Of a DNA stretch of 63,355 nt, positions 4,955 to 63,355 are shown piece after piece. The notes below the pieces were generated by a model. That model worked only from the letters and a program-made list of their open reading frames with translations, was not told the DNA's origin and did not search any database. The position numbers and the translations under genes were made by a program. The stretch is from IMG/VR virus record IMGVR_UViG_3300025674_009014. One strand, written 5' to 3'. This DNA comes from an uncultured virus (IMG/VR IMGVR_UViG_3300025674_009014). Lineage: Duplodnaviria > Heunggongvirae > Uroviricota > Caudoviricetes. The stretch's first letter is position 1. The number at the start of each line of letters is the position of its first letter.

Positions 4955-5875
4955 ATGGCTTCTCTATCAGAACTCAAGAAAAACAGAAATTCTTTCCTAC
5001 AAAAACTCAACAAGGAAATCGAAAAAATCGATACTCCTTCAGAATCTAAAAGTTATATCGATGATCGCTTCTGGAAACCAGAAGTAGATAAAAGCGGTAA
5101 TGGTTATGCTGTTATTCGTTTTTTACCTCCCGTTCAAGGAGAGGATGTTCCTTGGGCTCGTGTTTTCAATCATGGTTTTCAAGGCCCAACAGGTTTGTGG
5201 TATATTGAAAATTCTCTCACCACTCTTGGTAAAAAAGATCCAGTTTCAGAATATAACACTCAATTGTGGAATTCTGGTATTGAGGCGAATAAAGAAATCG
5301 CAAGAAAGCAAAAACGTAGATTGACTTATATCAGTAACATTTATGTTATTTCAGATCCTAAAAATCCACAAAATGAAGGAAAAGTTTTTCTCTATAAATT
5401 TGGTAAAAAAATCTTTGATAAAATCAATGATCTCATGAATCCTGAATTTGAGGATGAAACTCCTGTAAATCCTTTTGATTTGTGGGAAGGTGCGAATTTT
5501 AAATTAAAAATTCGTAAGGTAGAGGGATATCAAAATTATGATAAATCCGAATTTGATTCTCCAGGTCAATTGTTGGAGACTGACGATGAACTAGAGGCAG
5601 TTTGGAATTCTCAGTATCCTTTGGTAGAATTTTTGGCAGAGGATAATTTCAAAACATATGATGAACTCAAAGAGAGACTTGATATGGTTCTTGCATTAGA
5701 CACTCCAAAAATTGAAGAGCCTGTTGTAATGACTGCTCAAAAACGTCCTACAGCTGAAGAGGAGATGCAGCAAGAGAGAAAACCGATGCCTGCATATGCC
5801 TCTTCTAGTAGCATGGACACAGATGATGACGATGAGGATATGTCTTATTTCGCTAGATTGGCTGAAGAAAATTAA
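4955..5875 (+). CDS. 32: Single-stranded DNA-binding protein gp32
   Basis: DDRFWKPEVDKSGNGYAVIRFLP, HGFQGP, YKFGKKIFDKI, GANFKLKIRKVEGYQNYDKSEF, acidic tail. Confidence 0.97.
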   Translation: MASLSELKKNRNSFLQKLNKEIEKIDTPSESKSYIDDRFWKPEVDKSGNGYAVIRFLPPVQGEDVPWARVFNHGFQGPTGLWYIENSLTTLGKKDPVSEYNTQLWNSGIEANKEIARKQKRRLTYISNIYVISDPKNPQNEGKVFLYKFGKKIFDKINDLMNPEFEDETPVNPFDLWEGANFKLKIRKVEGYQNYDKSEFDSPGQLLETDDELEAVWNSQYPLVEFLAEDNFKTYDELKERLDMVLALDTPKIEEPVVMTAQKRPTAEEEMQQERKPMPAYASSSSMDTDDDDEDMSYFARLAEEN

Positions 5876-8568
5876 TACAGCAGACTGTCTCTAAATGAGA
5901 CTGAAGAATTCGGTTCAGGTGGTATTTCTGTTACATTGTACTCCTGAACCGATATTCTTTTGTTGTCCACAAAATTAGAATTTGTGGCAGGAGGAATCAT
6001 CATAGGACTCATTGTCTGTTCTTTCATTAAACTATTTTCTTTTTGCATTTTAAAAACATGACCAAGTGCTAATAATTGTTCTCTATTAAAAAGTATTTCT
6101 GGATTATTAATTCGAGATTCACCGGCTATAAAAAGTTCAGGTTTTGTAAATACCGCACCATTTTTATTCATTGGTAATTTTAATATATTATTTTCAATAA
6201 CATCTGCAATAATTTCTCTTTTATCGTTCATTCCAGGTCTAGATTTGTAGAATTGATCGTATTTTCCTTCTTTTCTTGCCATTTCATCAGCAATTCTATA
6301 TAATACACTTTGAGCGCCTATGGGATTCATATTATGATGAAACGGTAATAATAAACTAATTGATTGACCTTCTTTATAATTACGTATGTCAGAATATGTT
6401 CCTCCAGAAGTTATATCGTATGCTTTTTTGTTGTGTACTATTTGTATATCTTTTTTAAATACTAAATCTCTCTGTTCTTTATCATAAGTGAATATTTCAC
6501 TTAAATTTGATATATTCATATTAGTGAATTTATTAATTTCATCCACAACACCTTTTAATATAGGGTTACTTTGTAAAATATTTTTTTCTTCGTTTAATTT
6601 TTCTGGGTTTTCTTGATTTAAATTTTTATCTGTATTATCAATGGATAATGGTTTTTCTCCTGCAGGATCAACTAATCTCATATTATCATTAAAATCATGT
6701 CCTTTAATTGATGTGGGTCTTTCTTCTTGTTTACCTTCTCTGATTTTGTTTTCTAATATTTGTTGTGCAACAACATTTGCAGTTCTATCCATATTTTCAT
6801 CATCACCTTCATCATCAAATTTTTGCACTGTTTCATTGGAATATACTAATTTGTTTAAAGATTCAAGCAATAATTGATTTGAATTTTGATCTATTTTACT
6901 GAAAGATGTGCCCGCTGGTTGAACGTTTCCTAAAGTATCGGTCATTGGCACTTTTGTTACACTCTGTCCAGTCGAAAAATCATATGCTATAGCATCACTT
7001 AGTTTAGTTAATGACGGATCATTGGTTTTTTCTAGTATATTCGATGCTAGATTCATGTAATTTCTACTATCTGCCTCAAACATTGCATCAATATTAGCAT
7101 CATTATTTTCTTCTGGATTGCTTAAAAGATTTAAAGAATTTGATATTTGATCATCTTGAATTCCTTCATTTCTAAACTTTTCAGTTGCCATGCCTATATC
7201 TTGATTATACTGATTTAGTAATAGAAGATCCTCAGGTGTCATAACATTTTGAGCATTGTTTCCGTCTTTTAAACCATATTTGTCTAGTAATTCTCTTTTA
7301 TTTTTAGCAGCGTCAACATATGACTTTGCTGCTTTTTCTGCTTCACTTTCATCTGATAAAACAGCGCCTAATGCTAAACCTATTGCTCCTCCCAATAAAG
7401 CACCTGCAATCATACCAATAGGAGATCCTAGAGATCCTATGAGAGCTCCTAATTTCATTCCTGCTATTGCACCCCCATAACTTCCTAGGGCAGCCAATGT
7501 TATTGATTTGACATTTAATTTAAATTTATCATTGTTTATAACTCCAAATACAGCACCTAATGCGCCACCTAGTAATATACCCGGTAAACCAAATCTAGAT
7601 CCTATCATTGCACCGAAACCTGCACTGATGAACAAACTTTCAAACATGCCGGTTTCGCCTTTTATTATTTTTTGCGTAGAATTTTCGCCCAGTATTGCTT
7701 GAAGAATTGATATTGCTCCTCCAAACATTATTCCAGGAATGATTCCTCTTATACCTGCAAGCGCAAATCCTGCTGCTGCTCCTATCATCAATTTATCATC
7801 TAAATCAGTTTCTTTAAAAAATGTGTCGATGAATTTTCCAACACCACTTAGAATATTATCTTCTTCAAATCCTGCTTTTATTGATTCGAATAATTTTGGT
7901 CCTAAAAGTAATGCGGCAATACCTTTGGTTATGCCTAATCCGGCAACACCTAAACTGGCAGGTATTAAACTTGAAATTAAAGATTTACCTTTAGGACCTA
8001 AAAAAATTGAACTTAGCATGTCAGTTAAAAAACCTCCTAAACCTTTGCTGGGTAAATTTGGTATTTTGCGGTCAAAAAATGGTGTAGATTTTTGTTTTTC
8101 CTGTCTATCTTCTTCGTCCTGATATCTTTTTCTATCAAATATTAACAATAATCTTTCTAACAAACTGTTAGTTTTATTCTGATTTTCTTTTGTTGGTGCA
8201 TTTTTGTTTGAAGTTTCAGGCTTATTAGCGGGTGAAGTTTCAGGCTTATTAGCGGGTGAAGTTTCAGGCTTATTGGCAGGTAAAGTTTCAGGCTTATTAG
8301 CGGGTGAAGTTTCAGACTTATTGGCAGGTAAAGTTTCTGTAGAATCTATGTTCAATAATTTTAGATTATCATTGATATCTTGAAAAATTAAATTGTTAGA
8401 TTTTTCAATTTCAAAAATTTGTTTGATGTTGGACGATATTTCTTTAATAGAACCTATTATATTTTTTGATAAATCATTATTGAAATATTCATCAAAATTG
8501 TTGTTTGTTTTATCGGAAGGTTTAAAATTTTCTCTTGTATAATTTAATAAATTTGTTATGGTTGCCAT
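5872..8568 (-). CDS. Probable tail tape-measure protein (gp29 equivalent)
   Basis: Helical N-terminus; long Gly/Ala hydrophobic stretch (GAAAGFALAG...GAIAGMKLGALIG); tape-measure-like C-terminal motif GAVFTKPELFIAGE..PE; directly follows the gp26/gp51 pair. Confidence 0.65.
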   Translation of the reverse strand: MATITNLLNYTRENFKPSDKTNNNFDEYFNNDLSKNIIGSIKEISSNIKQIFEIEKSNNLIFQDINDNLKLLNIDSTETLPANKSETSPANKPETLPANKPETSPANKPETSPANKPETSNKNAPTKENQNKTNSLLERLLLIFDRKRYQDEEDRQEKQKSTPFFDRKIPNLPSKGLGGFLTDMLSSIFLGPKGKSLISSLIPASLGVAGLGITKGIAALLLGPKLFESIKAGFEEDNILSGVGKFIDTFFKETDLDDKLMIGAAAGFALAGIRGIIPGIMFGGAISILQAILGENSTQKIIKGETGMFESLFISAGFGAMIGSRFGLPGILLGGALGAVFGVINNDKFKLNVKSITLAALGSYGGAIAGMKLGALIGSLGSPIGMIAGALLGGAIGLALGAVLSDESEAEKAAKSYVDAAKNKRELLDKYGLKDGNNAQNVMTPEDLLLLNQYNQDIGMATEKFRNEGIQDDQISNSLNLLSNPEENNDANIDAMFEADSRNYMNLASNILEKTNDPSLTKLSDAIAYDFSTGQSVTKVPMTDTLGNVQPAGTSFSKIDQNSNQLLLESLNKLVYSNETVQKFDDEGDDENMDRTANVVAQQILENKIREGKQEERPTSIKGHDFNDNMRLVDPAGEKPLSIDNTDKNLNQENPEKLNEEKNILQSNPILKGVVDEINKFTNMNISNLSEIFTYDKEQRDLVFKKDIQIVHNKKAYDITSGGTYSDIRNYKEGQSISLLLPFHHNMNPIGAQSVLYRIADEMARKEGKYDQFYKSRPGMNDKREIIADVIENNILKLPMNKNGAVFTKPELFIAGESRINNPEILFNREQLLALGHVFKMQKENSLMKEQTMSPMMIPPATNSNFVDNKRISVQEYNVTEIPPEPNSSVSFRDSLLY
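8210..8337. repeat. 24-bp tandem repeat, about 5.3 copies, encoding [S/L]PANKPET in the tape-measure candidate
   Basis: GAAGTTTCAGGCTTATTAGCGGGT-like units starting at 8210, 8234, 8258, 8282, 8306, plus a partial unit at 8330. Confidence 0.93.
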
Positions 8569-8762
8569 TACCTTCTCGCATTTTGTTGTTGTTTTAATCT
8601 TTCATTTTCTTCTTTAATATAATTAATTAATAATGAAATGTAAATGTCACGCTCAAACGGTAACATATTATCCAATTCAGTTAGACTATATTTATGGTGT
8701 TGCATAAGATTAAAGTTCGTAACATAATAATTTTCAAGAGAGTTATGACACAGGCTTATGAA
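8568..8762 (-). CDS. 51: gp51-like hub/tail assembly chaperone domain, probably entered by -1 frameshift from gp26 (first in-frame ATG is at 8705)
   Basis: Not in the ORF track. Translates FISLCHNSLENYYVTNFNLMQHHKYSLTELDNMLPFERDIYISLLINYIKEENERLKQQQNARR*. The stop overlaps the tape-measure ATG (TAATG). Confidence 0.8.
   Translation of the reverse strand, partial: FISLCHNSLENYYVTNFNLMQHHKYSLTELDNMLPFERDIYISLLINYIKEENERLKQQQNARR
8743..8755. repeat. 13-bp inverted-repeat arm 6 nt after the gp26 slippery site (pairs with 9497-9509)
   Basis: Plus-strand TTATGACACAGGC is the exact reverse complement of GCCTGTGTCATAA at 9497-9509. Confidence 0.85.
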
Positions 8763-9490
8763 AAAAAATCTTCGAGCGAACTTAATACAACGTTTTCTTC
8801 AATTCCACATTTTGAACATCTATATTTTTTATTGACTGATATACTAGGTAAATTTACAAAAAAGTTTTTTATTGATTCGAATTGATCATTATTAAGATTG
8901 TTTAAAAATTCAATAAATTCTTCTTTCTTATGTTCTTTTCTGTGATACAATTCATCTTTTAAATATATGTAATCTATCGAATTCACGATGACTTCAAATA
9001 ATTCATCGAATGAATTGCCGATATTTTCCGAAGTAGAAACTTTACTTAATGTTTCTACTGTTGGATATTTCATCACAATTCCCATTTCATTATTAAATTC
9101 AATTTTTGGACTAAAATTTTCTTTTTTTGTTGGTTTTATTTCATCGATTTTTATTTTTATTTTTTGATTTCCATCACATTCCATTCCTTTTGAATTTACA
9201 CCATTTCTATGTTTTAAATTCACTTCAATAGTTTCTCCAATTGATCTTGATCTTAATTGTAAAAATATATACTGCAAATCAAATAATGGTAAATCATCTA
9301 TATCTAATTCTGTTAAAACACAATTTGATAATATTTGCTTTATGGCACCTAATATATCTTTTTCATCGCCAGATTCAAGTGCCATTAACAAAATTTTCTC
9401 TTCTTTAACTAGAAAAGGTCTAAATTTAATTTTTTTTCCATTAGAAATTAACTCTAAATCATAAGTTGGTACTTCTATTTTTGGTAACAT
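8756..9490 (-). CDS. 26: gp26-like baseplate hub / tail assembly protein
   Basis: MLPKIEVPTYDL...IKFRPFLVKEEKILLMALES, FDLQYIFLQLRSRSIGE, MKYPT, C-terminal CSKC..LEDFF. Confidence 0.88.
   Translation of the reverse strand: MLPKIEVPTYDLELISNGKKIKFRPFLVKEEKILLMALESGDEKDILGAIKQILSNCVLTELDIDDLPLFDLQYIFLQLRSRSIGETIEVNLKHRNGVNSKGMECDGNQKIKIKIDEIKPTKKENFSPKIEFNNEMGIVMKYPTVETLSKVSTSENIGNSFDELFEVIVNSIDYIYLKDELYHRKEHKKEEFIEFLNNLNNDQFESIKNFFVNLPSISVNKKYRCSKCGIEENVVLSSLEDFFS
8762..8768 (-). other. Candidate -1 slippery heptamer U UUU UUU
   Basis: gp26 ends GAT TTT TTT TCA TAA; a -1 slip continues TTC ATA AGC CTG TGT CAT into the gp51-like frame. Confidence 0.7.
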
Positions 9491-9496
9491 AATTTT

Positions 9497-9509
9497 GCCT
9501 GTGTCATAA
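9497..9509. repeat. 13-bp inverted-repeat arm covering the gp26 ribosome-binding region (pairs with 8743-8755)
   Basis: On the mRNA it reads UUAUGACACAGGC, followed by AAAAUU and the gp26 AUG at 9490. Confidence 0.85.
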
Positions 9510-9534
9510 GTTTTTTTATATTCAAAATGAAATA

Positions 9535-10143
9535 TTATGCATTTTCACCTATATTATATGTATAAGGGTTAATATCACTACTACTTCTTATGGTAGTATT
9601 GATATCTGTAGAATTATCATCATTTCTTAACCAATATCTATATGCAAATGTCACGTTAATTCTTGCATAATCATTGGATGCTGCATTTAAAGAAAGTGAG
9701 CTAACAAGTGTCGGATAACATTCGTGAAAAGTACACGAATACATTAAACTGTTGGTTTCATTGAACATTGATAGATTTACGTTTTGAACATAACTATCAT
9801 AATAATTTACATCATGTGATATTGGATTGTTTATTAAATCCATCCAACTATCAAAAAATCTTTTTTCTTTCATACCATCTGATGTACATAAAAATGTCAT
9901 ATTTGTTTCTATGTAAGAACTGCCATATGGAATTTTTCTAATCGGACCATAAATTTTTTCGTCTGCTGTTAGTAAACTTCTACCAGGCAATTCGGCTAAT
10001 TCACAAAAATATGTCAGATTTCTTGCAGTGTTACTCAAAGACGAATTAGTTCCTGATGAAAAGGTAACTTCAAATCTATTAGTTATCGCAACCGATTTAT
10101 TTTCATTTATTTTGTTTCTAAAATCTGAAATAGATAGTGGCAT
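9535..10143 (-). CDS. gp54/gp19-like tail tube initiator
   Basis: NRFEV..FCELAELPGRSL..YGPIRKIPY..FFDSWMDLI..YPT..VTFAYRYW tube-fold pattern. Confidence 0.75.
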   Translation of the reverse strand: MPLSISDFRNKINENKSVAITNRFEVTFSSGTNSSLSNTARNLTYFCELAELPGRSLLTADEKIYGPIRKIPYGSSYIETNMTFLCTSDGMKEKRFFDSWMDLINNPISHDVNYYDSYVQNVNLSMFNETNSLMYSCTFHECYPTLVSSLSLNAASNDYARINVTFAYRYWLRNDDNSTDINTTIRSSSDINPYTYNIGENA

Positions 10144-10720: not shown

Positions 10721-10728
10721 TATTTAGT
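10721..10728 (-). promoter_or_regulatory. T4-type late promoter variant ACTAAATA
   Basis: 5 nt upstream of the gene 2 ATG; no Shine-Dalgarno (SD) sequence. Confidence 0.55.
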
Positions 10729-11158
10729 TAAATAAATGATCTTCCGTAATTATTTCAAATTTCCATTTTCTGTCCTTGCAATATTCTTCAGCTGCTTTCC
10801 ATTTTGCCTCATTCACTCCATATGTATAAACTTCATTGATATATTTTTTTGACAGTCTATTTGGTTTTTTCGGAGGAGTTGTTTGTTTTTTCGGTTTTAT
10901 TTCAATTAGAATATTTTCAATGATATTTTTACTGTTTCTTATTTTTATCAAGAAATCAGGATAGTATTTATGAATTTTTCTATCGATAGGTGATCTATAG
11001 GGTATGATGATCTCTTCACTTGACCATTCTAATATATGTGGATTTTCTTCACAATATTTCATGAACTTTCTTTCCCACAATGAACGATATGTAACATTTG
11101 TAGGATCTCCTTTGTATTTTTCTATGTTTTTTATTCTGTATTTACCTTTGTAAGCCAT
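10724..11158 (-). CDS. 4: Head completion nuclease gp4
   Basis: MAYKGKY..KYKGDP...YRSLWERKFMKYC..WSSEE..IPY..YYPDF..EIKPKKQT..NEAKWKAA. Confidence 0.93.
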   Translation of the reverse strand: MAYKGKYRIKNIEKYKGDPTNVTYRSLWERKFMKYCEENPHILEWSSEEIIIPYRSPIDRKIHKYYPDFLIKIRNSKNIIENILIEIKPKKQTTPPKKPNRLSKKYINEVYTYGVNEAKWKAAEEYCKDRKWKFEIITEDHLFN

Positions 11159-55593: not shown

Positions 55594-57264
55594 ATGCTAT
55601 TTGATATATTTGGATTTACTATCGGAAAAAAAGAATCCAAGAAAAATGAAAAGATACAAAGTTTTGCTCAAGTTGAACATGAAGACGGTGCGGTTACCGT
55701 AGCATCTGGAGGTGCTTATGGAACGTATATTGATACTGAAGGTGCCATAAAGAGCGAATCAGAGTTAATAAATCGTTATAGAGATATGTCCTTACAGGCA
55801 GAAGTCGAAAATGCTATAGACGATATTGTTAATGAAGCGATTATATCAATAAAAGACAATCCTATAGTGGATATAAAATTAGATAATCTAAACCTATCCG
55901 AAAATATAAAAAATAAAATAAGAGCAGAATTCAAAGAGATATCTAAATTATTAGATTTTCAAAATTTAGGTTATGATTTATTCAGAAGATGGTATGTTGA
56001 TGGTAGAATTTATTATCATGTTGTTATTGATGAAAAAAATACTAAAAAAGGTATTCACGAATTAAGATTATTAGATCCTCGCAAGATAAAAAAAATCAGA
56101 GAAAATAAATCTCTAAAACTTCCAAATGGTGACACTCAAAAACAAATACAAGAATATTATGTCTATAATGAAAAAGGTATATATCAATCGCAAGGACAGA
56201 CAATAGGAACTGCATTTACAAATGCAGCATCTGGTTTAAAAATTTCTTTAGATTCTATTGTTTATTGTCATTCTGGATTATTAAATTCCACAAAATCATT
56301 AGTATTATCATACTTACATAAAGCTATAAAACCTCTCAATATGCTCAGAATGATTGAAGATTCTTTAGTCATTTATAGGATATCAAGGGCACCCGAAAGA
56401 AGAATTTTTTATGTAGATGTTGGAAATTTACCTAAAGTACGAGCAGAACAATATATGCGTGATTTGATGACAAGATATAAAAATAAACTTGTTTATGATG
56501 CGAATACTGGTGAAATACGTGATGATAGAAAACATATGTCAATGTTAGAAGATTACTGGATGCCTAGAATGGAGGGGGGTAGAGGTACCGAGGTAACAAC
56601 ATTGCCAGGAGGTCAAAATCTAGGTGATATAGAAGATGTTATATACTTTCAAAAGAAACTTTATAAATCATTAGGTGTTCCACTCTCTAGATTAGAATCA
56701 GAAGCATCTTATACCATTGGTAGAGCAACGGAAATTTCCAGAGACGAAGTTAAATTTACCAGATTTATTAATAGATTACAAAATAAATTTTCAATTTTAT
56801 TTGATGAATTATTGGAGAGACAATTAAGTCTTAAAGGTATTATGAGTAGAGATGATTTTAAAGAAATTAAAAATCAACTCTATTATCATTATGAAAGTGA
56901 TAGTCATTTCACAGAAATGAAAAGAAATGAATTATTACAAGACAGACTTAACTTATTAAGAGATTTATCAGAATACACTGGAAAATATTATTCTAATGAG
57001 TATGTGAGAAAAAATATTTTATTGATGAGTGATGATGACATCAAAACAAATGATGAACAAATTGCGAAAGAACTGGAAGATCCAAGATTTTCTGGAGAAG
57101 ATGATATGCAAATGAATAATTCTTACGAACAAGAATCTGAAAATGTTTTGAATGAAAATCTCATTGAGAAAATTATAGAAAGCAAATTTGAATCTAGTAA
57201 AAATGACGAAAAACTGAAAAACACTATAAATGATATTTTATCTACTATAAAGTTAGACGATTAA
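55594..57264 (+). CDS. 20: Portal protein gp20
   Basis: FRRWYVDGR, LSYLHKAIKP.NMLRMIEDSLVIYRISRAPERRIFYVDVGNLPK, EDYWMPR.EGGRGTE. Confidence 0.98.
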   Translation: MLFDIFGFTIGKKESKKNEKIQSFAQVEHEDGAVTVASGGAYGTYIDTEGAIKSESELINRYRDMSLQAEVENAIDDIVNEAIISIKDNPIVDIKLDNLNLSENIKNKIRAEFKEISKLLDFQNLGYDLFRRWYVDGRIYYHVVIDEKNTKKGIHELRLLDPRKIKKIRENKSLKLPNGDTQKQIQEYYVYNEKGIYQSQGQTIGTAFTNAASGLKISLDSIVYCHSGLLNSTKSLVLSYLHKAIKPLNMLRMIEDSLVIYRISRAPERRIFYVDVGNLPKVRAEQYMRDLMTRYKNKLVYDANTGEIRDDRKHMSMLEDYWMPRMEGGRGTEVTTLPGGQNLGDIEDVIYFQKKLYKSLGVPLSRLESEASYTIGRATEISRDEVKFTRFINRLQNKFSILFDELLERQLSLKGIMSRDDFKEIKNQLYYHYESDSHFTEMKRNELLQDRLNLLRDLSEYTGKYYSNEYVRKNILLMSDDDIKTNDEQIAKELEDPRFSGEDDMQMNNSYEQESENVLNENLIEKIIESKFESSKNDEKLKNTINDILSTIKLDD

Positions 57265-57268
57265 TTAA

Positions 57269-60200
57269 ATGTCAAATGATAATAATAAGCAATTAAAACT
57301 AAATGAAGTTTTAGCTGCATCTCTAGCATACACTCAAAAAGAATTTAAAAGAGCTAAGCAAGAGCTAATAAAAGATATAAAAGAAATTTTTGATCCTGAA
57401 ACTGGTGAGAAGATAAAAGTTCTTGAAATAGCAGGTGAGCAAGGTCCTAGAGGTGAAAAGGGTGAAAAAGGTTTAGATGGTTCTCCTGGTGAAAGAGGAG
57501 AAAAAGGTGAGAAAGGTGATCCAGGTAAAATAGGGCCACAAGGACTTCAAGGGCCACAAGGACCTCAGGGAGAAATTGGACCACAAGGTCCTCAGGGTGA
57601 TGTAGGTCCAAAAGGCGATGACGCACAAGTAGAACCATTAAAGCAAGAGTTAGAAAAATTAAAAACTGTTGTAAAAAATATTGGTTCACAAGCAGCATCT
57701 ACTGCGCAAAAAGTATCGACTGGTTGGGGAGATACTTATGGAGGAGGTGGCGGTAGTGATATTGTATCAATAGGTAAAAACTTAGAAGTCACATCTAACA
57801 CAGTACAACTATATTCAAATGTAGAATATACTCCAACAAAAACTACCTTAAAATTTAAATCAATAAAAACAGGTAGTGGTCTTTTTGCTGCACAGAATAA
57901 TTCTTCCATAATTATATCTTTTGATCCTGATTTATTGTCAATAAATGATGATAATAATTTAGTCGTCAATCAATCATTGATTATCGGACAGACTCAATCT
58001 TTAAAAATTGGTGAAGGTACACAAAATGCTGTATTAGGTTTTCACAGCACCTCTGGTAATGATTTTACTATTAGAGATAGTAATGGTGACAGAATATTTT
58101 CAGTTCTTGAGTTAAAAGAAGTCGATGAAAGTTTTCTGGGCTCTGAAGGAGATGTTTTAAGGGTTACGTCCAATAATACTTTAGAGTTTTCTCCTGCCTC
58201 GAAACCTATAGAGATTTCTGAAACGCAGGTTTCTGGAAATACAATCTCAAATTTAGAACACATATCCGTAAATTCTGATGATGGTTTTTATTTAGAAAAT
58301 GGTCAAAACAATTCTTCAGTTATTATTAGATCAAATATATTAGATCAGATAAGACCATTAACTTCAGGATCATCAGGATCAGCAGGAACTTCAGGATCAG
58401 CAGGAACTTCAGGAACTTCAGGATCATCAGGAACCTCAGGAGTAGATGGAAATTTTGGAGGCGCTTCTTTTGAATATGATTATGATGATTCTATCATCGG
58501 TGATCCTTCAACTGGAATTTTTAGATTCAATAGCACATCATCTGCATCTATAACTGAATTGATTATAAATCACTTGGATAATAATTCTAGTGATATAGAA
58601 TCATTTCTACACACTATAGCTGGATCGACAAGCACGATTAAGGGTCATGTTAGAATTTCTCTAAAAGGTGATAATTCTGCATACATGCTATTTACCATTA
58701 GTGATTCTGTCGATGGTGGTGCTGGTAATAATTTTGATATAGTATCAATCAATTATGTTACTTCTTCTAATGAAATTCCATTTAATGATGGCGATAGCTG
58801 TGTGGTTACATTTGCTAGAACGGGTGATGCAGGAACATCTGGTACTTCTGGTTCATCCGGTACAGCAGGATCTTCTGGTTCATCTGGTCGAGATGCAAGT
58901 GCAGGATCATCAGGATCATCAGGATCATCTGGTACATCAGGAACTTCAGGATCTGTAGGTAGTGCAGGTAGTGCTGGATCATCTGGAAGTTCAGGTAGTG
59001 CAGGATCATCTGGAAGTTCAGGTAGTGCAGGATCATCTGGAAGTTCAGGTAGTGCAGGTAGTGCCGGATCAGCAGGTAGTGCAGGATCTTCAGGTTCAGC
59101 AGGTAGTGCAGGTAGTGCCGGATCAGCAGGTAGTGCAGGATCTTCAGGCTCAGCAGGTAGTGCAGGTAGTGCCGGATCAGCAGGTAGTGCAGGTAGTGCA
59201 GGTAGTGCTGGATCATCTGGAAGTGCCGGATCATCAGGTTCTGCAGGTAGTTCTGGTTCATCTGGTAGTTCAGGAAGTGCTGGAACTTCTGGATCGTCTG
59301 GACTAACATATGCAAGTTCTGGTTCATCTGGTAGTTCAGGAAGTGCTGGAACTTCTGGATCATCGGGAACTTCTGGATCATCGGGAACTTCTGGATCATC
59401 CGGTAGCGCTGGAAGTGCAGGAAGTGCAGGTAGTGCTGGTTCATCTGGTAGTTCAGGAAGTGCTGGAACTTCTGGATCGTCTGGATTAACATATGCAAGT
59501 TCTGGTAGCGCAGGTTCGTCTGGAACATCTGGTAGTGCTGGAACTTCTGGTAGTTCTGGTAGTGCTGGAACTTCAGGTAGTTCTGGTAGTGCTGGATCAT
59601 CTGGAAGTTCTGGATCTGCAGGTAGTTCTGGAAGTGCAGGAAGTGCAGGTAGTGCTGGATCATCTGGAAGTTCTGGATCTGCAGGTAGTTCTGGAAGTTC
59701 TGGATCTGCTGGTTCTGCTGGATCTGCAGGTAGTTCTGGAAGTTCTGGATCTGCAGGTAGTTCTGGAAGTTCTGGATCTGCAGGTAGTTCTGGAAGTTCT
59801 GGATCTGCAGGTAGTTCTGGAAGTTCTGGATCTGCTGGTTCTGCTGGATCTGCAGGTAGTTCTGGAAGTTCTGGATCTGCTGGTTCTGCAGGTAGTTCTG
59901 GAAGTTCTGGATCTGCCGGTTCTGCTGGATCTGCAGGCAGTTCTGGTTCATCTGGTACTTCTGGCACATCTGGTTCTGCTGGTACTTCTGGGGTTGATGG
60001 AAATTTTGGTGGCGCAGGCTTTGAATTTGAATACGAGAACGTACAAAGTCCATTCAATACATCATTTCCTTATGGTTTATTTCGATTAAATAATGGAACT
60101 CAAAACTTATCAGATAAAATATACATTAAATTTTTTGATAATAATTATACAGATTTACAAAATTTTCTTAGAACAATAGATGATTCAACTAGCACCGTAA

Positions 60201-63200
60201 AAGGTCATTTAAAGATTTCTAAAAAAGGACAAGAAGAAGATTTTTTATTATTTGTAATAACTCAAAATTTAATAGAACATCCTCAAGAATCTTACTATGA
60301 ATTAAGTATTCAAATATTAGAAGAATCTTCAACAATTCCTTTTAACGATGAAGATATTTGTGTATTAACTTTTGCAAGAACTGGTGATAAAGGTGAAAAA
60401 GGAGATGATGGATCATCAGGATCTTCTGGTACATCTGGAACTGCAGGAACAGCAGGATCTGCAGGAACTTCAGGATCTTCTGGTCGAGATGCAAGTGCTG
60501 GTTCTTCTGGATCTGCAGGTACCGCAGGATCTTCTGGTAGTTCGGGTTCTGCTGGTTCTTCAGGAACTTCTGGTAGTTCAGGAAGTTCAGGAACTTCAGG
60601 ATCATCTGGTCGAGATGCAAGTGCGGGTTCCGCCGGTACATCAGGATCCTCTGGAAGTTCAGGTTCCGCCGGTACATCAGGATCCTCTGGAAGTTCAGGT
60701 TCTGCTGGCAGTGCTGGATCTTCTGGTAGTTCAGGTTCTGCTGGCACATCAGGATCCTCTGGAAGTTCTGGATCCTCTGGAAGTTCAGGTTCTGCTGGCA
60801 GTGCTGGATCTTCTGGTAGTTCAGGTTCTGCTGGCACATCAGGATCCTCTGGAAGTTCTGGATCCTCTGGAAGTGCTGGATCAGCAGGTAGTGCTGGAAG
60901 TGCTGGATCAGCAGGTAGTGCTGGAAGTGCAGGATCTTCTGGATCCTCAGGATTTGACGGTGATCGATATAGTACAATTTCTTATACAACAAATGTTGTA
61001 GATGTTGTTGGCTTTAAAACTTTTATACTTGAAGATATTGATAGACAATATGCTCCACGACAAGAAGTATTAATTTCATACGGAAATGATTATAGAACTT
61101 ATTTTCAAGGTGTAGTTGTCAGTTATAATGATAAAACAGGTGTATTAGTAATAGATCCTGAAGAAGCGGAGATGTCATCGTATCATCTTCAATTAAATGA
61201 TAGAAGAGATGAAATTCATCAAATAGCTTTAGAAAATGATGGATATTTGTTAAATGAACAAGACAATAGTAAACTTGAGACTGAAAATTTAATAAAAACA
61301 CTATCACTAGAAAATGATGAACAATTACTACTAGAAAACGGATCAGAAAAACTTATAATAGAAGAAAAAGAATATGATTTTTCTAGTGGAATGTATGTAG
61401 GAAATTTTGATAAATTAGTTTTAGAAAATGGTGACAAATTTCTTTTTGAAGAGGCTGAAGGTATTCATGATCTTCTGATTGAGGATGGTAGCAATTTTAT
61501 ATTAGAAAATACATTTTCGTTCTGGTATGTGAATCTAAGAGGCGCTCAGGGTATTCCAGGGTCATCAGGTTCATCAGGTAGCAGTGGCAGTGCAGGCAGT
61601 TCCGGAAGTTCTGGATCTTCTGGAAGTTCGGGAAGTTCAGGTTCATCAGGTAGCAGTGGCAGTGCAGGTAGTTCTGGTAGTGCAGGTAGTTCTGGTAGTG
61701 CAGGTAGTTCTGGCAGTGCAGGTAGTTCTGGAAGTTCAGGAAGTGCAGGATCTTCTGGTTCATCTGGTCGAGATGCAAGTGCAGGATCTTCAGGATCGTC
61801 AGGCACATCTGGAACTTCAGGTTCTACAGGAACTTCAGGTTCTACAGGAACTTCTGGATCATCAGGTAAAGATGGAACTTCTGGAAGAGATGCTAGTGCT
61901 GGTACTTCTGGTTCGGCAGGAACTTCAGGAGAAGCACCATACGCATATGTCTATAAAGTAACAGTTAATTTAGATGAAGGTGGTGAGAATGTTTTCACAT
62001 TTGATGAAGTTCCTTTAGATTCATTATTACTGTATAAAGGTTTTAAATATAAATTTGAACTGGATGATCCTTCAAATTTAAATTATGAATTATCTTTATC
62101 TAATTATTTTGAGGGTATTCATAATCCAGGATCTATTGGACAAGATGATATAGATGTTACATATGGTATCGAAAGAATTGGTACTCCAGGAACACCTGGT
62201 GCTTATATCGCATATCAAGTTCCTTTTTCATCGAATCCTATAATTTATTATTATAATAAGGTTTCTCCTGGAAATTCCAATGAAATAATAATTGAAAGAA
62301 TTTCTTCAGGCACATCGGGATCAGCAGGTTCATCAGGCAGTGCTGGATCAGCAGGTTCATCAGGCAGTGCTGGAAGTGCTGGATCTTCTGGTTCATCTGG
62401 AAGTTCTGGTAGTGCCGGATCAGCAGGTAGTGCCGGATCAGCAGGGTCTGCTGGTAGTGCTGGTAGTGCCGGATCAGCAGGTAGTGCAGGAAGTGCTGGT
62501 AGTGCTGGATCAGCAGGTAGTGCAGGAAGTGCTGGCAGTGCCGGATCAGCAGGTAGTGCAGGATCAGCAGGTAGTGCAGGATCAGCAGGTAGTGCGGGAA
62601 GTGCTGGTAGTGCAGGATCAGCAGGTAGTAGTGGTACATCTGGTGTAGATGGTGGTACATACGTACACAGTCAAACAACTCCTAGTAGATATTGGGTCAT
62701 AAATCATAATTTAAATACCAGTAGACCTGTAAATGTTATATTCACTGATTCTGATTATGTACAAATATTTCCGCAAACTGTAAGATTTACAACAAGAAAT
62801 TCTATTGAGATCATATGGCCAGTGGGGGTTAATCAAACTGGTTATGCAACTGTAACTTTTGGGGACAGTTCTTCAGGATCAGCAGGTAGTGCAGGTAGTT
62901 CTGGTTCTGCAGGTTCTTCTGGCTCTACAGGAACATCTGGATCTTCTGGTCGTGATGGTGGTGCATTTATTCATCGACAAGATATAGCATCCACAACTTG
63001 GATAGTTAATCACTATCTAGGCACTAGACCTTTAAGTTTTGCCATCACAGATTTAGATTTTAATGTAATTTTAACTGATAAAGTTTCTTATATCGATAAT
63101 AATACAGTTCAAATTACTTTTCCTAAACCCACAACAGGATATGTTGCCTTAACATTCGGAGATTCATCTTCAGGATCAGCAGGTAGCAGTGGTAGTGCAG

Positions 63201-63355
63201 GTAGTGCAGGATCAGCAGGTAGTGCAGGGTCTGCCGGTAGTGCTGGATCAGCAGGTAGTGCAGGGTCTGCCGGTAGTGCAGGGTCTGCCGGTAGTGCCGG
63301 ATCAGCAGGTAGTGCAGGTAGTGCAGGTAGTGCAGGATCAGCAGGTAGTGCAGGG
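57269..63355 (+). CDS. Giant collagen-like, Gly-Ser/Ala/Thr-rich fibre protein (>=2029 aa, 3' end beyond the window)
   Basis: ATG 4 nt after the portal stop; frame stays open to the window end. MSNDNNKQLK..., a classical GPQ/GEK collagen tract, then (GSA/GSS/GTS)n blocks alternating with globular domains. Confidence 0.9.
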   Translation, partial: MSNDNNKQLKLNEVLAASLAYTQKEFKRAKQELIKDIKEIFDPETGEKIKVLEIAGEQGPRGEKGEKGLDGSPGERGEKGEKGDPGKIGPQGLQGPQGPQGEIGPQGPQGDVGPKGDDAQVEPLKQELEKLKTVVKNIGSQAASTAQKVSTGWGDTYGGGGGSDIVSIGKNLEVTSNTVQLYSNVEYTPTKTTLKFKSIKTGSGLFAAQNNSSIIISFDPDLLSINDDNNLVVNQSLIIGQTQSLKIGEGTQNAVLGFHSTSGNDFTIRDSNGDRIFSVLELKEVDESFLGSEGDVLRVTSNNTLEFSPASKPIEISETQVSGNTISNLEHISVNSDDGFYLENGQNNSSVIIRSNILDQIRPLTSGSSGSAGTSGSAGTSGTSGSSGTSGVDGNFGGASFEYDYDDSIIGDPSTGIFRFNSTSSASITELIINHLDNNSSDIESFLHTIAGSTSTIKGHVRISLKGDNSAYMLFTISDSVDGGAGNNFDIVSINYVTSSNEIPFNDGDSCVVTFARTGDAGTSGTSGSSGTAGSSGSSGRDASAGSSGSSGSSGTSGTSGSVGSAGSAGSSGSSGSAGSSGSSGSAGSSGSSGSAGSAGSAGSAGSSGSAGSAGSAGSAGSAGSSGSAGSAGSAGSAGSAGSAGSAGSSGSAGSSGSAGSSGSSGSSGSAGTSGSSGLTYASSGSSGSSGSAGTSGSSGTSGSSGTSGSSGSAGSAGSAGSAGSSGSSGSAGTSGSSGLTYASSGSAGSSGTSGSAGTSGSSGSAGTSGSSGSAGSSGSSGSAGSSGSAGSAGSAGSSGSSGSAGSSGSSGSAGSAGSAGSSGSSGSAGSSGSSGSAGSSGSSGSAGSSGSSGSAGSAGSAGSSGSSGSAGSAGSSGSSGSAGSAGSAGSSGSSGTSGTSGSAGTSGVDGNFGGAGFEFEYENVQSPFNTSFPYGLFRLNNGTQNLSDKIYIKFFDNNYTDLQNFLRTIDDSTSTVKGHLKISKKGQEEDFLLFVITQNLIEHPQESYYELSIQILEESSTIPFNDEDICVLTFARTGDKGEKGDDGSSGSSGTSGTAGTAGSAGTSGSSGRDASAGSSGSAGTAGSSGSSGSAGSSGTSGSSGSSGTSGSSGRDASAGSAGTSGSSGSSGSAGTSGSSGSSGSAGSAGSSGSSGSAGTSGSSGSSGSSGSSGSAGSAGSSGSSGSAGTSGSSGSSGSSGSAGSAGSAGSAGSAGSAGSAGSSGSSGFDGDRYSTISYTTNVVDVVGFKTFILEDIDRQYAPRQEVLISYGNDYRTYFQGVVVSYNDKTGVLVIDPEEAEMSSYHLQLNDRRDEIHQIALENDGYLLNEQDNSKLETENLIKTLSLENDEQLLLENGSEKLIIEEKEYDFSSGMYVGNFDKLVLENGDKFLFEEAEGIHDLLIEDGSNFILENTFSFWYVNLRGAQGIPGSSGSSGSSGSAGSSGSSGSSGSSGSSGSSGSSGSAGSSGSAGSSGSAGSSGSAGSSGSSGSAGSSGSSGRDASAGSSGSSGTSGTSGSTGTSGSTGTSGSSGKDGTSGRDASAGTSGSAGTSGEAPYAYVYKVTVNLDEGGENVFTFDEVPLDSLLLYKGFKYKFELDDPSNLNYELSLSNYFEGIHNPGSIGQDDIDVTYGIERIGTPGTPGAYIAYQVPFSSNPIIYYYNKVSPGNSNEIIIERISSGTSGSAGSSGSAGSAGSSGSAGSAGSSGSSGSSGSAGSAGSAGSAGSAGSAGSAGSAGSAGSAGSAGSAGSAGSAGSAGSAGSAGSAGSAGSAGSAGSAGSAGSAGSSGTSGVDGGTYVHSQTTPSRYWVINHNLNTSRPVNVIFTDSDYVQIFPQTVRFTTRNSIEIIWPVGVNQTGYATVTFGDSSSGSAGSAGSSGSAGSSGSTGTSGSSGRDGGAFIHRQDIASTTWIVNHYLGTRPLSFAITDLDFNVILTDKVSYIDNNTVQITFPKPTTGYVALTFGDSSSGSAGSSGSAGSAGSAGSAGSAGSAGSAGSAGSAGSAGSAGSAGSAGSAGSAGSAGSAGSAG
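57434..57620 (+). repeat. Classical collagen Gly-X-Y tract (GEQ GPR GEK ... GPQ GPQ GDV GPK)
   Basis: About 20 consecutive triplets in the frame of ORF 57269. Confidence 0.9.
58361..63355 (+). repeat. Low-complexity 9-nt-period repeats encoding GSA/GSS/GTS triplets, in seven blocks
   Basis: Approximate blocks: 58361-58440, 58829-59994, 60409-60955, 61549-61930, 62306-62645, 62870-62950, 63170-end. Confidence 0.93.

What the first reader, a model, noticed from the sequence alone, without database searches (positions are those of the whole stretch)
8743..9509. Perfect 13-nt long-range pairing links the gp26 ribosome-binding site to the sequence just after its slippery site
Seen: on the minus-strand mRNA, UUAUGACACAGGC (9509-9497) ends 6 nt before the gp26 AUG and contains the only SD-like AGG there. 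GCCUGUGUCAUAA (8755-8743) is its exact complement and starts 6 nt after the U UUU UUU heptamer at the end of the same gene, about 740 nt away. Both arms are GC-richer than their surroundings. Known: -1 frameshift stimulators usually begin about 5-9 nt after the slippery site and are usually local hairpins or pseudoknots. Inference: a duplex that loops out the whole ORF would both block initiation and stall the ribosome on the slippery site. Frameshifting through it would re-open the RBS, coupling initiation to the gp26 : gp26-gp51 ratio. I know of no described phage element of this kind. Alternative: DNA inversion sites, but there is no recombinase in the window.
Basis: partly seen in the sequence, partly recalled or inferred. 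Interest (0 to 1): 0.9.

Follow-up and report, generated by a model that had tools for sequence, protein, structure and literature searches.

The report
Long-range pairing at phage frameshift site
In a group of uncultured T4-like phages, the leader of the baseplate gene 26 message is exactly complementary to the stretch just after a conserved ribosome-slipping site about 740 bases downstream; the pairing has been kept through deep divergence and sits where related phages carry a local hairpin.

Summary
On the minus strand, UUAUGACACAGGC (9509-9497) ends 6 nt before the gp26 AUG. Its exact complement (8755-8743) starts 6 nt after an in-frame U UUU UUU heptamer.

Within this window alone it is not beyond chance: 42% of simulated windows hold such a repeat. 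Comparison with relatives is what makes it real.
- **Conservation.** Both arms (core GACACAGGC / GCCUGUGUC) are kept in a monophyletic clade of gp26 loci, down to about 45% amino-acid identity. The 5' arm sits in otherwise unalignable leader sequence and at varying distances from the AUG.
- **Pairing.** The helix is 10-15 bp and 90.5% of cells pair. Two flanking pairs change while staying paired (G-C/A-U/G.U and U-A/U.G/C-G).
- **Frameshift.** The heptamer and an open -1 frame encoding the gp51 tail are present in all loci that reach the site. T4 gp51 is a gp26-like domain plus that tail.
- **Position.** 31 of 120 other lineages have a local helix starting just after the heptamer (most often at +6/+7). 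The window's clade has none.

Best reading (0.55): the 5' leader supplies the second strand of the -1 frameshift stimulator. Blocking of the ribosome-binding site applies only to the window's subclade (8 of 40 sequences). Independent compensatory events are few (about 2), and nothing has been tested experimentally.

The parts
9497..9509 (-). 5' arm UUAUGACACAGGC in the gp26 leader. The conserved core GACACAGGC is 9505-9497 and holds the SD-like AGG at 9500-9498.
   Evidence: sequence; the core is present in 10 of 10 distinct sequences of the protein-defined clade, and in 34 of 37 distinct complete loci found through the 3' arm alone.
8743..8755 (-). 3' arm GCCUGUGUCAUAA. It starts right after the gp26 stop codon, 6 nt after the heptamer. 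In the -1 frame it encodes S-L-C-H-N.
   Evidence: It pairs with the 5' arm with probability of at least 0.98 in 40 of 40 folded mRNAs.
8762..8768 (-). In-frame slippery heptamer U UUU UUU.
   Evidence: An in-frame T TTT TT(T/C/A) occurs in every locus that reaches the site.
8756..9490 (-). gp26 (baseplate hub, 244 aa), the zero-frame product. The helix loops out this whole ORF.
   Evidence: PF12322, E 4.1e-58; phrog_150.
8568..8762 (-). The -1 frame continuation (64 codons plus stop), which is the gp51 tail. It would be made as a gp26-gp51 fusion.
   Evidence: phrog_634; 530 of 550 phage records cover at least 80% of it, in most listed rows from residue 2; it aligns to T4 gp51 residues 211-244.
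5872..8568 (-). gp29-like hub / tape-measure gene directly downstream (898 aa).
   Evidence: weak phrog_794 tape-measure hit. Its place matches T4 gene 29.
9535..10143 (-). Tail-tube-family gene directly upstream. Its stop codon lies 44 nt before the gp26 AUG, so the 5' arm is intergenic.
   Evidence: PF06841, phrog_45.

Best explanation
The gp26 mRNA of this phage clade closes on itself. A 10-15-bp helix forms between a conserved 9-13-nt element in the 5' leader and the segment 5-6 nt downstream of a conserved U UUU UUY heptamer at the end of gp26.

A ribosome decoding the heptamer meets this duplex at its mRNA entrance. It pauses there, and a fraction of ribosomes slip to the -1 frame. Those ribosomes make gp26 extended by the 64-residue gp51 tail. 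This mirrors the short and long forms that T4 makes from two paralogous genes (26 and 51) and that lambda makes as G/GT.

The leader therefore plays the part that a local downstream hairpin plays in related phages, acting like a built-in antisense strand. In the window's own subclade the 5' arm also contains the only SD-like AGG. There the same helix should hinder 30S binding until a ribosome at the end of gp26 melts it.

What is shown and what is inferred:
- **Shown:** arms, spacing, conservation, complementarity, heptamer, the conserved -1 frame product, and the lack of a local structure in this clade.
- **Inferred:** that the helix forms in vivo, that it stimulates slippage, and that it gates initiation.
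For: **1. Conservation.** In a FastTree of 120 gp26 clusters, the 7 clusters with a leader/post-heptamer duplex of -20 to -26.5 kcal/mol form one clade (support 97). Paths within it reach 1.25 changes per site. The rest of the leader is unalignable, and the arm sits 6 to 17 nt from the AUG.

**2. Search by the 3' arm alone.** A metagenome scan returned 51 loci, of which 41 were complete gp26 loci and 37 were distinct. 34 of the 37 have GACACAGGC in the leader.

**3. Pair counts on 40 distinct sequences.**
- 90.5% of cells pair, against 26-47% when the partner is slid.
- Pair 7/807: GC 22, AU 13, GU 2, other 3.
- Pair 6/808: UG 14, CG 12, UA 12, other 2.
- Covariation score 0.117 against 0.082 (1 of 500 shuffles reach it).

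**4. Frameshift signal.** 213 of 234 loci matched my strict signature. Of the other 21, 20 show the heptamer on inspection or by identical ends: T TTT TTC with a later stop, T TTT TTA, or a 5'-truncated ORF. One contig ends before the site. The -1 frame is open for 57-69 codons in every locus whose DNA runs that far, and 530 of 550 phage records conserve it as protein.

**5. Fused form in T4.** T4 gp51 residues 1-201 are PF12322 (E 3.9e-52), and its tail aligns with the window's -1 extension.

**6. Same place, other partners.**
- 31 of 120 clusters have a local helix of at least 7 bp starting at +1..+10, most often +6/+7.
- 32 of 120 have z below -2.
- The 7 clusters of this clade have none (z -0.22 to +0.71).
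- Two loci with the same 3' arm but no 5' arm pair it with a downstream partner.

**7. Predicted folding.** The MFE and the centroid of an 861-nt fold both hold the helix. Pair probability is at least 0.98 in 40 of 40.

**8. Plausibility.** RNA oligonucleotides of 12-18 nt annealed downstream of a slippery site induce frameshifting in vitro (PMC3001050, abstract read).
Against: - In the window alone the repeat is within chance (42% of simulations).
- Ten of the 15 helix pairs never vary, and part of that is due to how the sequences were chosen.
- With phylogeny taken into account, only 3 independent contrasts exist at pair 7/807. About 2 go the same way and none goes opposite, and the sign test cannot reach significance.
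- The 3' arm is also constrained by coding (S-L-C-H in the -1 frame).
- 3 of 40 sequences have an uncompensated mismatch at pair 7/807. Two of these are A:C and one is U:U.
- Outside the clade, own leader/post-heptamer pairing is no better than permuted pairing (2323 of 10000 permutations).
- Many phage G/GT-type sites work without any stimulator, so the helix need not serve frameshifting.
- Folding predictions ignore ribosomes and kinetics, and the segments end near the arms.
- There are no expression, probing or proteomic data.
Confidence: 0.55

Rival explanations
1. The helix is a translational operator only. It masks or crowds the gp26 ribosome-binding region to keep gp26 synthesis low or to make it depend on ribosomes already on the message. 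Its position next to the heptamer is a by-product of using the end of the ORF as the partner.
For: In the window's subclade (8 of 40 sequences) the arm holds the only SD-like AGG. In the others the arm ends a few nt before the SD, inside a 30S footprint (inference). A ribosome terminating at the stop codon next to the 3' arm would melt the helix.
Against: 32 of 40 sequences keep a free, canonical SD 3' of the arm. The partner lies exactly at +5/+6 from the heptamer, where 31 of 120 other lineages have local helices. That coincidence is unexplained by this reading.
Confidence: 0.15
2. The helix serves mRNA metabolism rather than decoding. It could protect the 5' end, be a processing site, or set the stability of the gp26 cistron inside a polycistronic late transcript.
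For: The helix brackets one ORF exactly. 5'-proximal duplexes are known to stabilise bacterial mRNAs (recalled, not checked here).
Against: At 10-15 bp it is short for RNase III (recalled). No transcript ends could be examined, because all the runs found were held as contigs. It does not explain why this clade lacks the local post-heptamer structure seen elsewhere.
Confidence: 0.1
3. The two motifs are conserved for separate reasons and their pairing has no function. The 3' arm is kept by coding. The 5' arm is kept as some leader signal, or by hitch-hiking.
For: The 3' arm encodes a conserved S-L-C-H. Few independent compensatory events exist. The repeat is unremarkable in a single window.
Against: Two independently conserved 10-mers would be exact reverse complements by chance at about 4^-10 per register. 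The 5' arm moves relative to the AUG yet stays complementary. At pair 6/808, C occurs opposite G in 12 of 26 sequences but opposite A in only 1 of 14.
Confidence: 0.1
4. It is a DNA-level inverted repeat, either a pair of binding sites for one protein or sites for inversion of the gp26 segment.
For: Identical sequence in inverted orientation flanks a gene (pair I3).
Against: Contigs from 4 DNA runs of 4 studies are collinear, and no strand-changing joint was reported. Every locus examined has gp26 in the same orientation as the gp51 frame. G.U pairs (GU 2, UG 14) are mismatches at the DNA level and fit only the mRNA sense strand. No second copy of the motif occurs elsewhere in the 63 kb. A recombinase was not searched for systematically.
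Confidence: 0.05

Closest known systems
Lambda G/GT-type tail assembly frameshift (Levin 1993 and Xu 2004, as described in PMC5009743; passages read)
   Same: A short and a -1-extended long form are made from one gene near its 3' end. The gene lies next to the tape-measure-like gene (gp29 here). The slippery heptamer is conserved across a very wide phage group.
   Different: The protein family is PF12322 (gp26/gp51), not a known chaperone family. T4 encodes the two forms as separate paralogous genes. In this clade a long-range helix accompanies the site. I found no paper describing a gp26-gp51 frameshift.
Long-distance frameshift elements of barley yellow dwarf virus and relatives, and of IS3411 (PMC5009743; passages read)
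   Same: [quoted passage not shown]
   Different: In those systems the distant partner lies 3' of the site and pairs with a loop or bulge of an adjacent local stem-loop. Here the partner is the 5' leader of the same ORF, there is no local stem, and the long-range duplex itself is the barrier.
Antisense-induced frameshifting (PMC3001050, abstract read; PMC1616946, search listing only)
   Same: A plain duplex formed by a separate strand annealed downstream of the slippery site suffices. The optimum of 12-18 nt is close to the 10-15 bp seen here.
   Different: Those are synthetic oligonucleotides added in trans. Here the 'antisense' strand is a natural part of the same mRNA.
MS2 long-distance (Min Jou) interaction that masks the replicase start
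   Same: A ribosome-binding region pairs with a distant coding segment and is freed when ribosomes translate through the partner.
   Different: In MS2 an upstream gene's translation opens a downstream gene's start. Here the partner is at the end of the same ORF, and in 32 of 40 relatives the SD itself is not in the helix.

Membership tests
-1 programmed ribosomal frameshift site with a downstream RNA stimulator | In-frame X XXY YYZ heptamer | tested here: met
   U UUU UUU at 8768-8762. T TTT TT(T/C/A) is in frame in every locus that reaches the site.
-1 programmed ribosomal frameshift site with a downstream RNA stimulator | The -1 frame is open and encodes a conserved polypeptide continuous with the upstream ORF | tested here: met
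   The window has 64 codons, matching phrog_634. 530 of 550 phage records align over at least 80% of it, in most listed rows from residue 2. T4 gp51 has the fused architecture.
-1 programmed ribosomal frameshift site with a downstream RNA stimulator | A stable structure begins about 5-9 nt 3' of the heptamer | tested here: met
   The helix starts at +6 or +7 from the end of the heptamer in 40 of 40 sequences. The other strand is about 740 nt upstream, not local.
-1 programmed ribosomal frameshift site with a downstream RNA stimulator | The structure is supported by covariation | tested here: inconclusive
   Two pairs show three pair types each, and the covariation score is reached by 1 of 500 shuffles. 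However, only about 2 independent double changes exist and the sign test is not significant.
-1 programmed ribosomal frameshift site with a downstream RNA stimulator | The frameshift product is made, and its level depends on the structure | not testable with these tools
   No proteomic, reporter or raw RNA-read data were available. All runs found were held as contigs.
Phage tail assembly chaperone pair (G/GT type) | Overlapping ORFs joined by a -1 shift, lying between the tube gene and the tape-measure gene | tested here: met
   The order is tube-family gene, gp26, gp51 frame, gp29-like gene.
Phage tail assembly chaperone pair (G/GT type) | Sequence or fold membership in a known chaperone family | tested here: not met
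   The only Pfam family with E-value up to 0.01 is PF12322, T4_baseplate. The resemblance is one of arrangement, not of family.
Long-distance frameshift element (BYDV type) | An adjacent local stem-loop whose bulge or loop pairs with a distal 3' element | tested here: not met
   There is no significant local structure (z 0.12; z -0.22 to +0.71 for the clade). The partner lies 5' of the site.
Invertible DNA segment | Both orientations are present in populations, with a recombinase nearby | tested here: not met
   Only the collinear form was seen in contigs of 4 runs from 4 studies. A recombinase was not searched for systematically.
Rfam families | A match at the gathering score | tested here: not met
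   Over 8400-9700 there are two sub-threshold chance hits only: 24.7 bits against a cut-off of 60, and 20.5 against 51.3.

The most novel reading that the evidence does not exclude
The gp26 message is a self-gating loop in which the 5' leader is the frameshift stimulator. Whenever no ribosome sits on the start region, the leader anneals behind the slippery site. The frameshift ratio then reads out the initiation rate. In the window's subclade, each ribosome reaching the end of gp26 re-opens the start for the next one. This would be a natural cis-antisense coupling of initiation and recoding, of a kind not described for any phage or cell.
Probability: 0.3. Interest if true: 0.9.

Novelty: new variant of a known kind. 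Interest (0 to 1): 0.8.

Why it matters
If the helix works as proposed, it is a natural frameshift stimulator whose second strand is the mRNA's own 5' leader. That layout ties how often translation starts to which protein form is made. It is known so far only from synthetic antisense experiments.

It also draws attention to a frameshift that appears universal in marine T4-like phages, including the cyanophages, and that I did not find in print. That frameshift explains why their 'gp51' is only a fifth of the length of T4's (PMC3037559). It makes T4 gp26/gp51 the counterpart of lambda G/GT.

Current GenBank records annotate gp26 and gp51 as separate genes.

Tried and rejected
1. **Pairing as a general feature of gp26-gp51 loci: rejected.** Own leader/post-heptamer duplexes beat permuted ones overall (0 of 10000 permutations). 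Once the 7 clusters of the GACACAGGC clade are removed they no longer do (2323 of 10000).

2. **Cross-clade covariation: not relied on.** By eye, the L014-type arms (UGAUUGAGGA / UCCUUGGUCA) and the ACCUUUGUCAU-type arms looked like compensatory variants. But the 9 clusters with mid-range duplex energy (-12 to -20 kcal/mol) are scattered on the tree (9 changes; 500 of 500 shuffles are as low). Within the ACCUUUGUCAU group many leaders carry an uncompensated AUGUC.

3. **A T4-type late promoter just 5' of the arm: dropped.** TATAAATA (motif recalled from memory) has no exact copy near gp26. In the window it occurs 5 times against 14.5 expected.

4. **Local stimulator in the window: none.** The 136 nt after the heptamer fold no better than shuffles (z 0.12).

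5. **Sequencing runs.** Nothing can therefore be said about expression or transcript ends. The 'skips' mostly have short sides (23-25 letters) at 85% likeness, and I take them to come from other organisms.

6. **Earlier findings of this scan:** none for this genome.

7. **The window's own assembly** is not held, so no genome-wide motif count was possible.

Full report
**1. The observation**

On the minus strand, TTATGACACAGGC occupies 9509-9497 and ends 6 nt before the ATG at 9490. The ORF ends GAT TTT TTT TCA TAA (stop at 8758-8756). GCCTGTGTCATAA follows at 8755-8743. The complement is exact for 13 nt.

The 244-aa ORF is gp26 (PF12322, E 4.1e-58; phrog_150). The 45-aa ORF 8705-8568 matches the C-terminal part of phrog_634, 'baseplate hub assembly catalyst', which is gp51. 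An 898-aa gp29-like gene follows, and a tail-tube-family gene precedes. The -1 frame entered at the heptamer T TTT TTT (8768-8762) runs open for 64 codons into that gp51 ORF.

**2. Chance**

The 13-mer is not a dispersed repeat. A perfect 13-nt inverted repeat within 1.5 kb and with at least 6 G+C appeared in 42% of 200 simulated windows. The window by itself proves nothing, so everything below rests on comparison.

**3. The frameshift context is very widely conserved**

- Isolated phages reach only about 41% identity in gp26.
- P-SSM2, S-RIM32 and S-8S56 annotate gp26 and gp51 as separate CDSs. P-SSM2 and S-RIM32 both show T TTT TTC, one codon, a stop, and gp51 in the -1 frame.
- 213 of 234 loci then held matched this signature as I first coded it; all but the two GenBank loci and the window itself had been retrieved by protein similarity.
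- Of the 21 others, 13 have T TTT TTC with the zero-frame stop 24 nt later and 4 have T TTT TTA. One search inspected 12 of these; the rest have ends identical to them.
- Among the remaining loci, L150 has T TTT TTC with the stop 21 nt later, L143 has T TTT TTC preceded by TCT, and L086 has the heptamer in a 5'-truncated ORF. L213 ends before the site.
- The -1 frame is open for 57-69 codons in every locus whose DNA runs that far.
- The window's 64-residue -1 extension finds 550 phage records, and 530 cover at least 80% of it. In most listed rows the match starts at residue 2, directly after the heptamer and across the annotated gp26/gp51 boundary.
- T4 gp51 (249 aa) is PF12322 over residues 1-201 (E 3.9e-52), the same family as T4 gp26. 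Its residues 211-244 align with the window's extension (E 6e-4).
- Sullivan et al. 2010 (PMC3037559, passages read) noted that cyanophage gp51 is about 20% of the length of T4 gp51, without giving an explanation.

Together these results indicate that these phages make gp26 and a gp26-gp51 fusion by -1 frameshifting, while T4 encodes the two forms as paralogous genes. I found no paper on this. The searches were gp26+gp51+frameshift, baseplate hub+PRF+cyanophage, hub assembly catalyst+frameshift, gp51+slippery, and T4-like+ribosomal frameshift+baseplate. Only the held open-access library was searched.

**4. The pairing is conserved in one deep clade**

I worked with 281 complete loci, of which 190 were distinct, grouped into 120 clusters at 80% amino-acid identity. 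I computed the best duplex between the leader (-45..+3) and the 25 nt after the heptamer.
- Seven clusters stand apart at -20 to -26.5 kcal/mol. The next best is -15.5, and the bulk lie between -2 and -10.
- On a gp26 tree these seven form one clade (support 97), with internal paths up to 1.25 changes per site and identities down to about 45%.
- Their leaders are otherwise unalignable. The arm lies 6 nt (window, L005, L007), 14-15 nt (L010, L012) or 17 nt (L011, L019) from the AUG.
- A metagenome scan for the heptamer plus the 3' arm, which says nothing about the leader, gave 51 loci. Six were unrelated contexts and four were truncated. Of the 37 distinct complete gp26 loci, 34 have GACACAGGC in the leader.
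- Of the three misses, L403 is a 5'-truncated gene with a mis-assigned start. L383 and L366 lie outside or at the edge of the clade (37-46% identity) and pair the same 3' segment with a downstream partner instead.

**5. Pair counts**

I aligned 40 distinct sequences, with the left end set 8 nt before the core, so the alignment leans towards the helix. The core pairs are fixed partly by how the sequences were selected. In that alignment 15 pairs give 90.5% paired cells, against 26-47% for slid partners.

| Pair (columns) | Counts |
|---|---|
| 7/807 | GC 22, AU 13, GU 2, unpaired 3 |
| 6/808 | UG 14, CG 12, UA 12, unpaired 2 |
| 5/809 | UA 31, UG 1, unpaired 8 |
| 18/796 (uses the last A of the stop codon) | UA 24, unpaired 16 |

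- Ten pairs never vary.
- The covariation score is 0.117 against 0.082 in shuffles (1 of 500 reach it).
- On a tree built from the coding columns alone there are only 3 independent contrasts at pair 7/807. About 2 go the same way, none goes opposite, and the sign test is not significant.
- At pair 6/808 the 5' base switched U/C at least 6 times, almost always opposite G.
- The G.U pairs fit only the mRNA sense strand.

Covariation is therefore real but thin. The main evidence is sustained exact complementarity of a non-coding element.

**6. The same place holds local helices in other lineages**

- Folding the 70-75 nt after the heptamer, 32 of 120 clusters have z below -2.
- 31 of 120 have an uninterrupted local helix of at least 7 bp whose 5' strand starts at +1..+10, most often at +6 or +7.
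- Some are tight hairpins (L149, L116, L048, P-SSM2). Others are stems closing 30-45 nt onto the conserved AUGCAACA region (L066, L113, L167, L082).
- The seven clusters of the window's clade have no such structure (z -0.22 to +0.71). The window's own 136 nt give z 0.12.
- An 861-nt fold of the window's mRNA holds the 13-bp long-range helix in both the MFE and the centroid (z -2.5). The helix has pair probability of at least 0.98 in 40 of 40 relatives. The caveat is that those segments end near the arms.

**7. Mechanism**

The post-heptamer segment appears to be under selection to be double-stranded, with an evolutionarily labile partner. In this clade the partner is the 5' leader. A duplex supplied by a separate strand is enough to induce -1 shifting, with an optimum of 12-18 nt (PMC3001050, abstract). 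So a 10-15-bp leader/post-heptamer helix is a credible stimulator.

Known natural long-distance stimulators (BYDV, IS3411, possibly T7 gene 10) have 3'-distal partners that dock onto a local stem-loop (PMC5009743, passages). Here the partner is 5' and there is no local stem.

Eight of the 40 sequences have no SD apart from the AGG inside the arm. The other 32 have AGGAG, GGAG or AAGGA 3' of the arm. Feedback between initiation and the frameshift ratio is plausible but is pure inference.

**8. DNA-level alternative**

Contigs from four DNA runs of four studies cover the stretch collinearly; two of them span it in a single record, with 1 and 4 differences. No variant lies in either arm or in the T8 run, and no strand-changing joint was reported. 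One contig lacks one A at 9511, just 5' of the arm. One of these runs may be the source of the window. No Rfam family reaches its threshold.

**9. Verdict**

The helix is very likely real and selected (about 0.85). Its role as the frameshift stimulator is the best-supported function (0.55). Coupling to initiation is an open and attractive possibility (about 0.3).

Noticed in passing
window 8568-9490 (minus strand); L001-L353: A -1 frameshift joining gp26 to the gp51 tail looks universal in marine and other T4-like phages: an in-frame T TTT TT(T/C/A) and an open -1 frame of 57-69 codons. GenBank records annotate two separate genes. T4 gp51 is a gp26-family domain (PF12322, residues 1-201) plus that tail. 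I found no paper on it.
   Followed up: yes
L149, L116, L048, L001, L066, L113, L167, L082 (the 75 nt after the heptamer): Different lineages carry different local helices starting 5-7 nt after the heptamer. Some are tight hairpins. Others are stems that close onto the conserved AUGCAACA coding segment about 50 nt downstream.
   Followed up: partly
window 57269-63355 (plus strand, runs off the end): An ORF of more than 2029 aa lies directly after the T4-type portal gene (55594-57264, PF07230). It has 15 stretches of collagen triple-helix repeat (PF01391, E 1.8e-125). This explains the G+C rise to 0.39-0.44 at 58-62 kb.
   Followed up: partly
whole window: The T4 late-promoter octamer TATAAATA (recalled motif) is under-represented: 5 copies against 14.5 expected, and all 100 shuffles had at least 5.
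   Followed up: no
window 8627-8645 and 9078-9096: A second inverted repeat (19 nt, 89% complementary) links the gp51 frame with the middle of gp26. It is AT-rich and was not examined in relatives.
   Followed up: no
window 10724-11158 (minus strand): The gp4-like head-closure protein (phrog_218) also matches the TnsA-like endonuclease N-terminal domain (PF08722, E 1.4e-23).
   Followed up: no
window 9511: The A-run just 5' of the 5' arm varies in length by one base between strains: A7 in the window, A6 in L003/L004 and in one contig of run X5.
   Followed up: no
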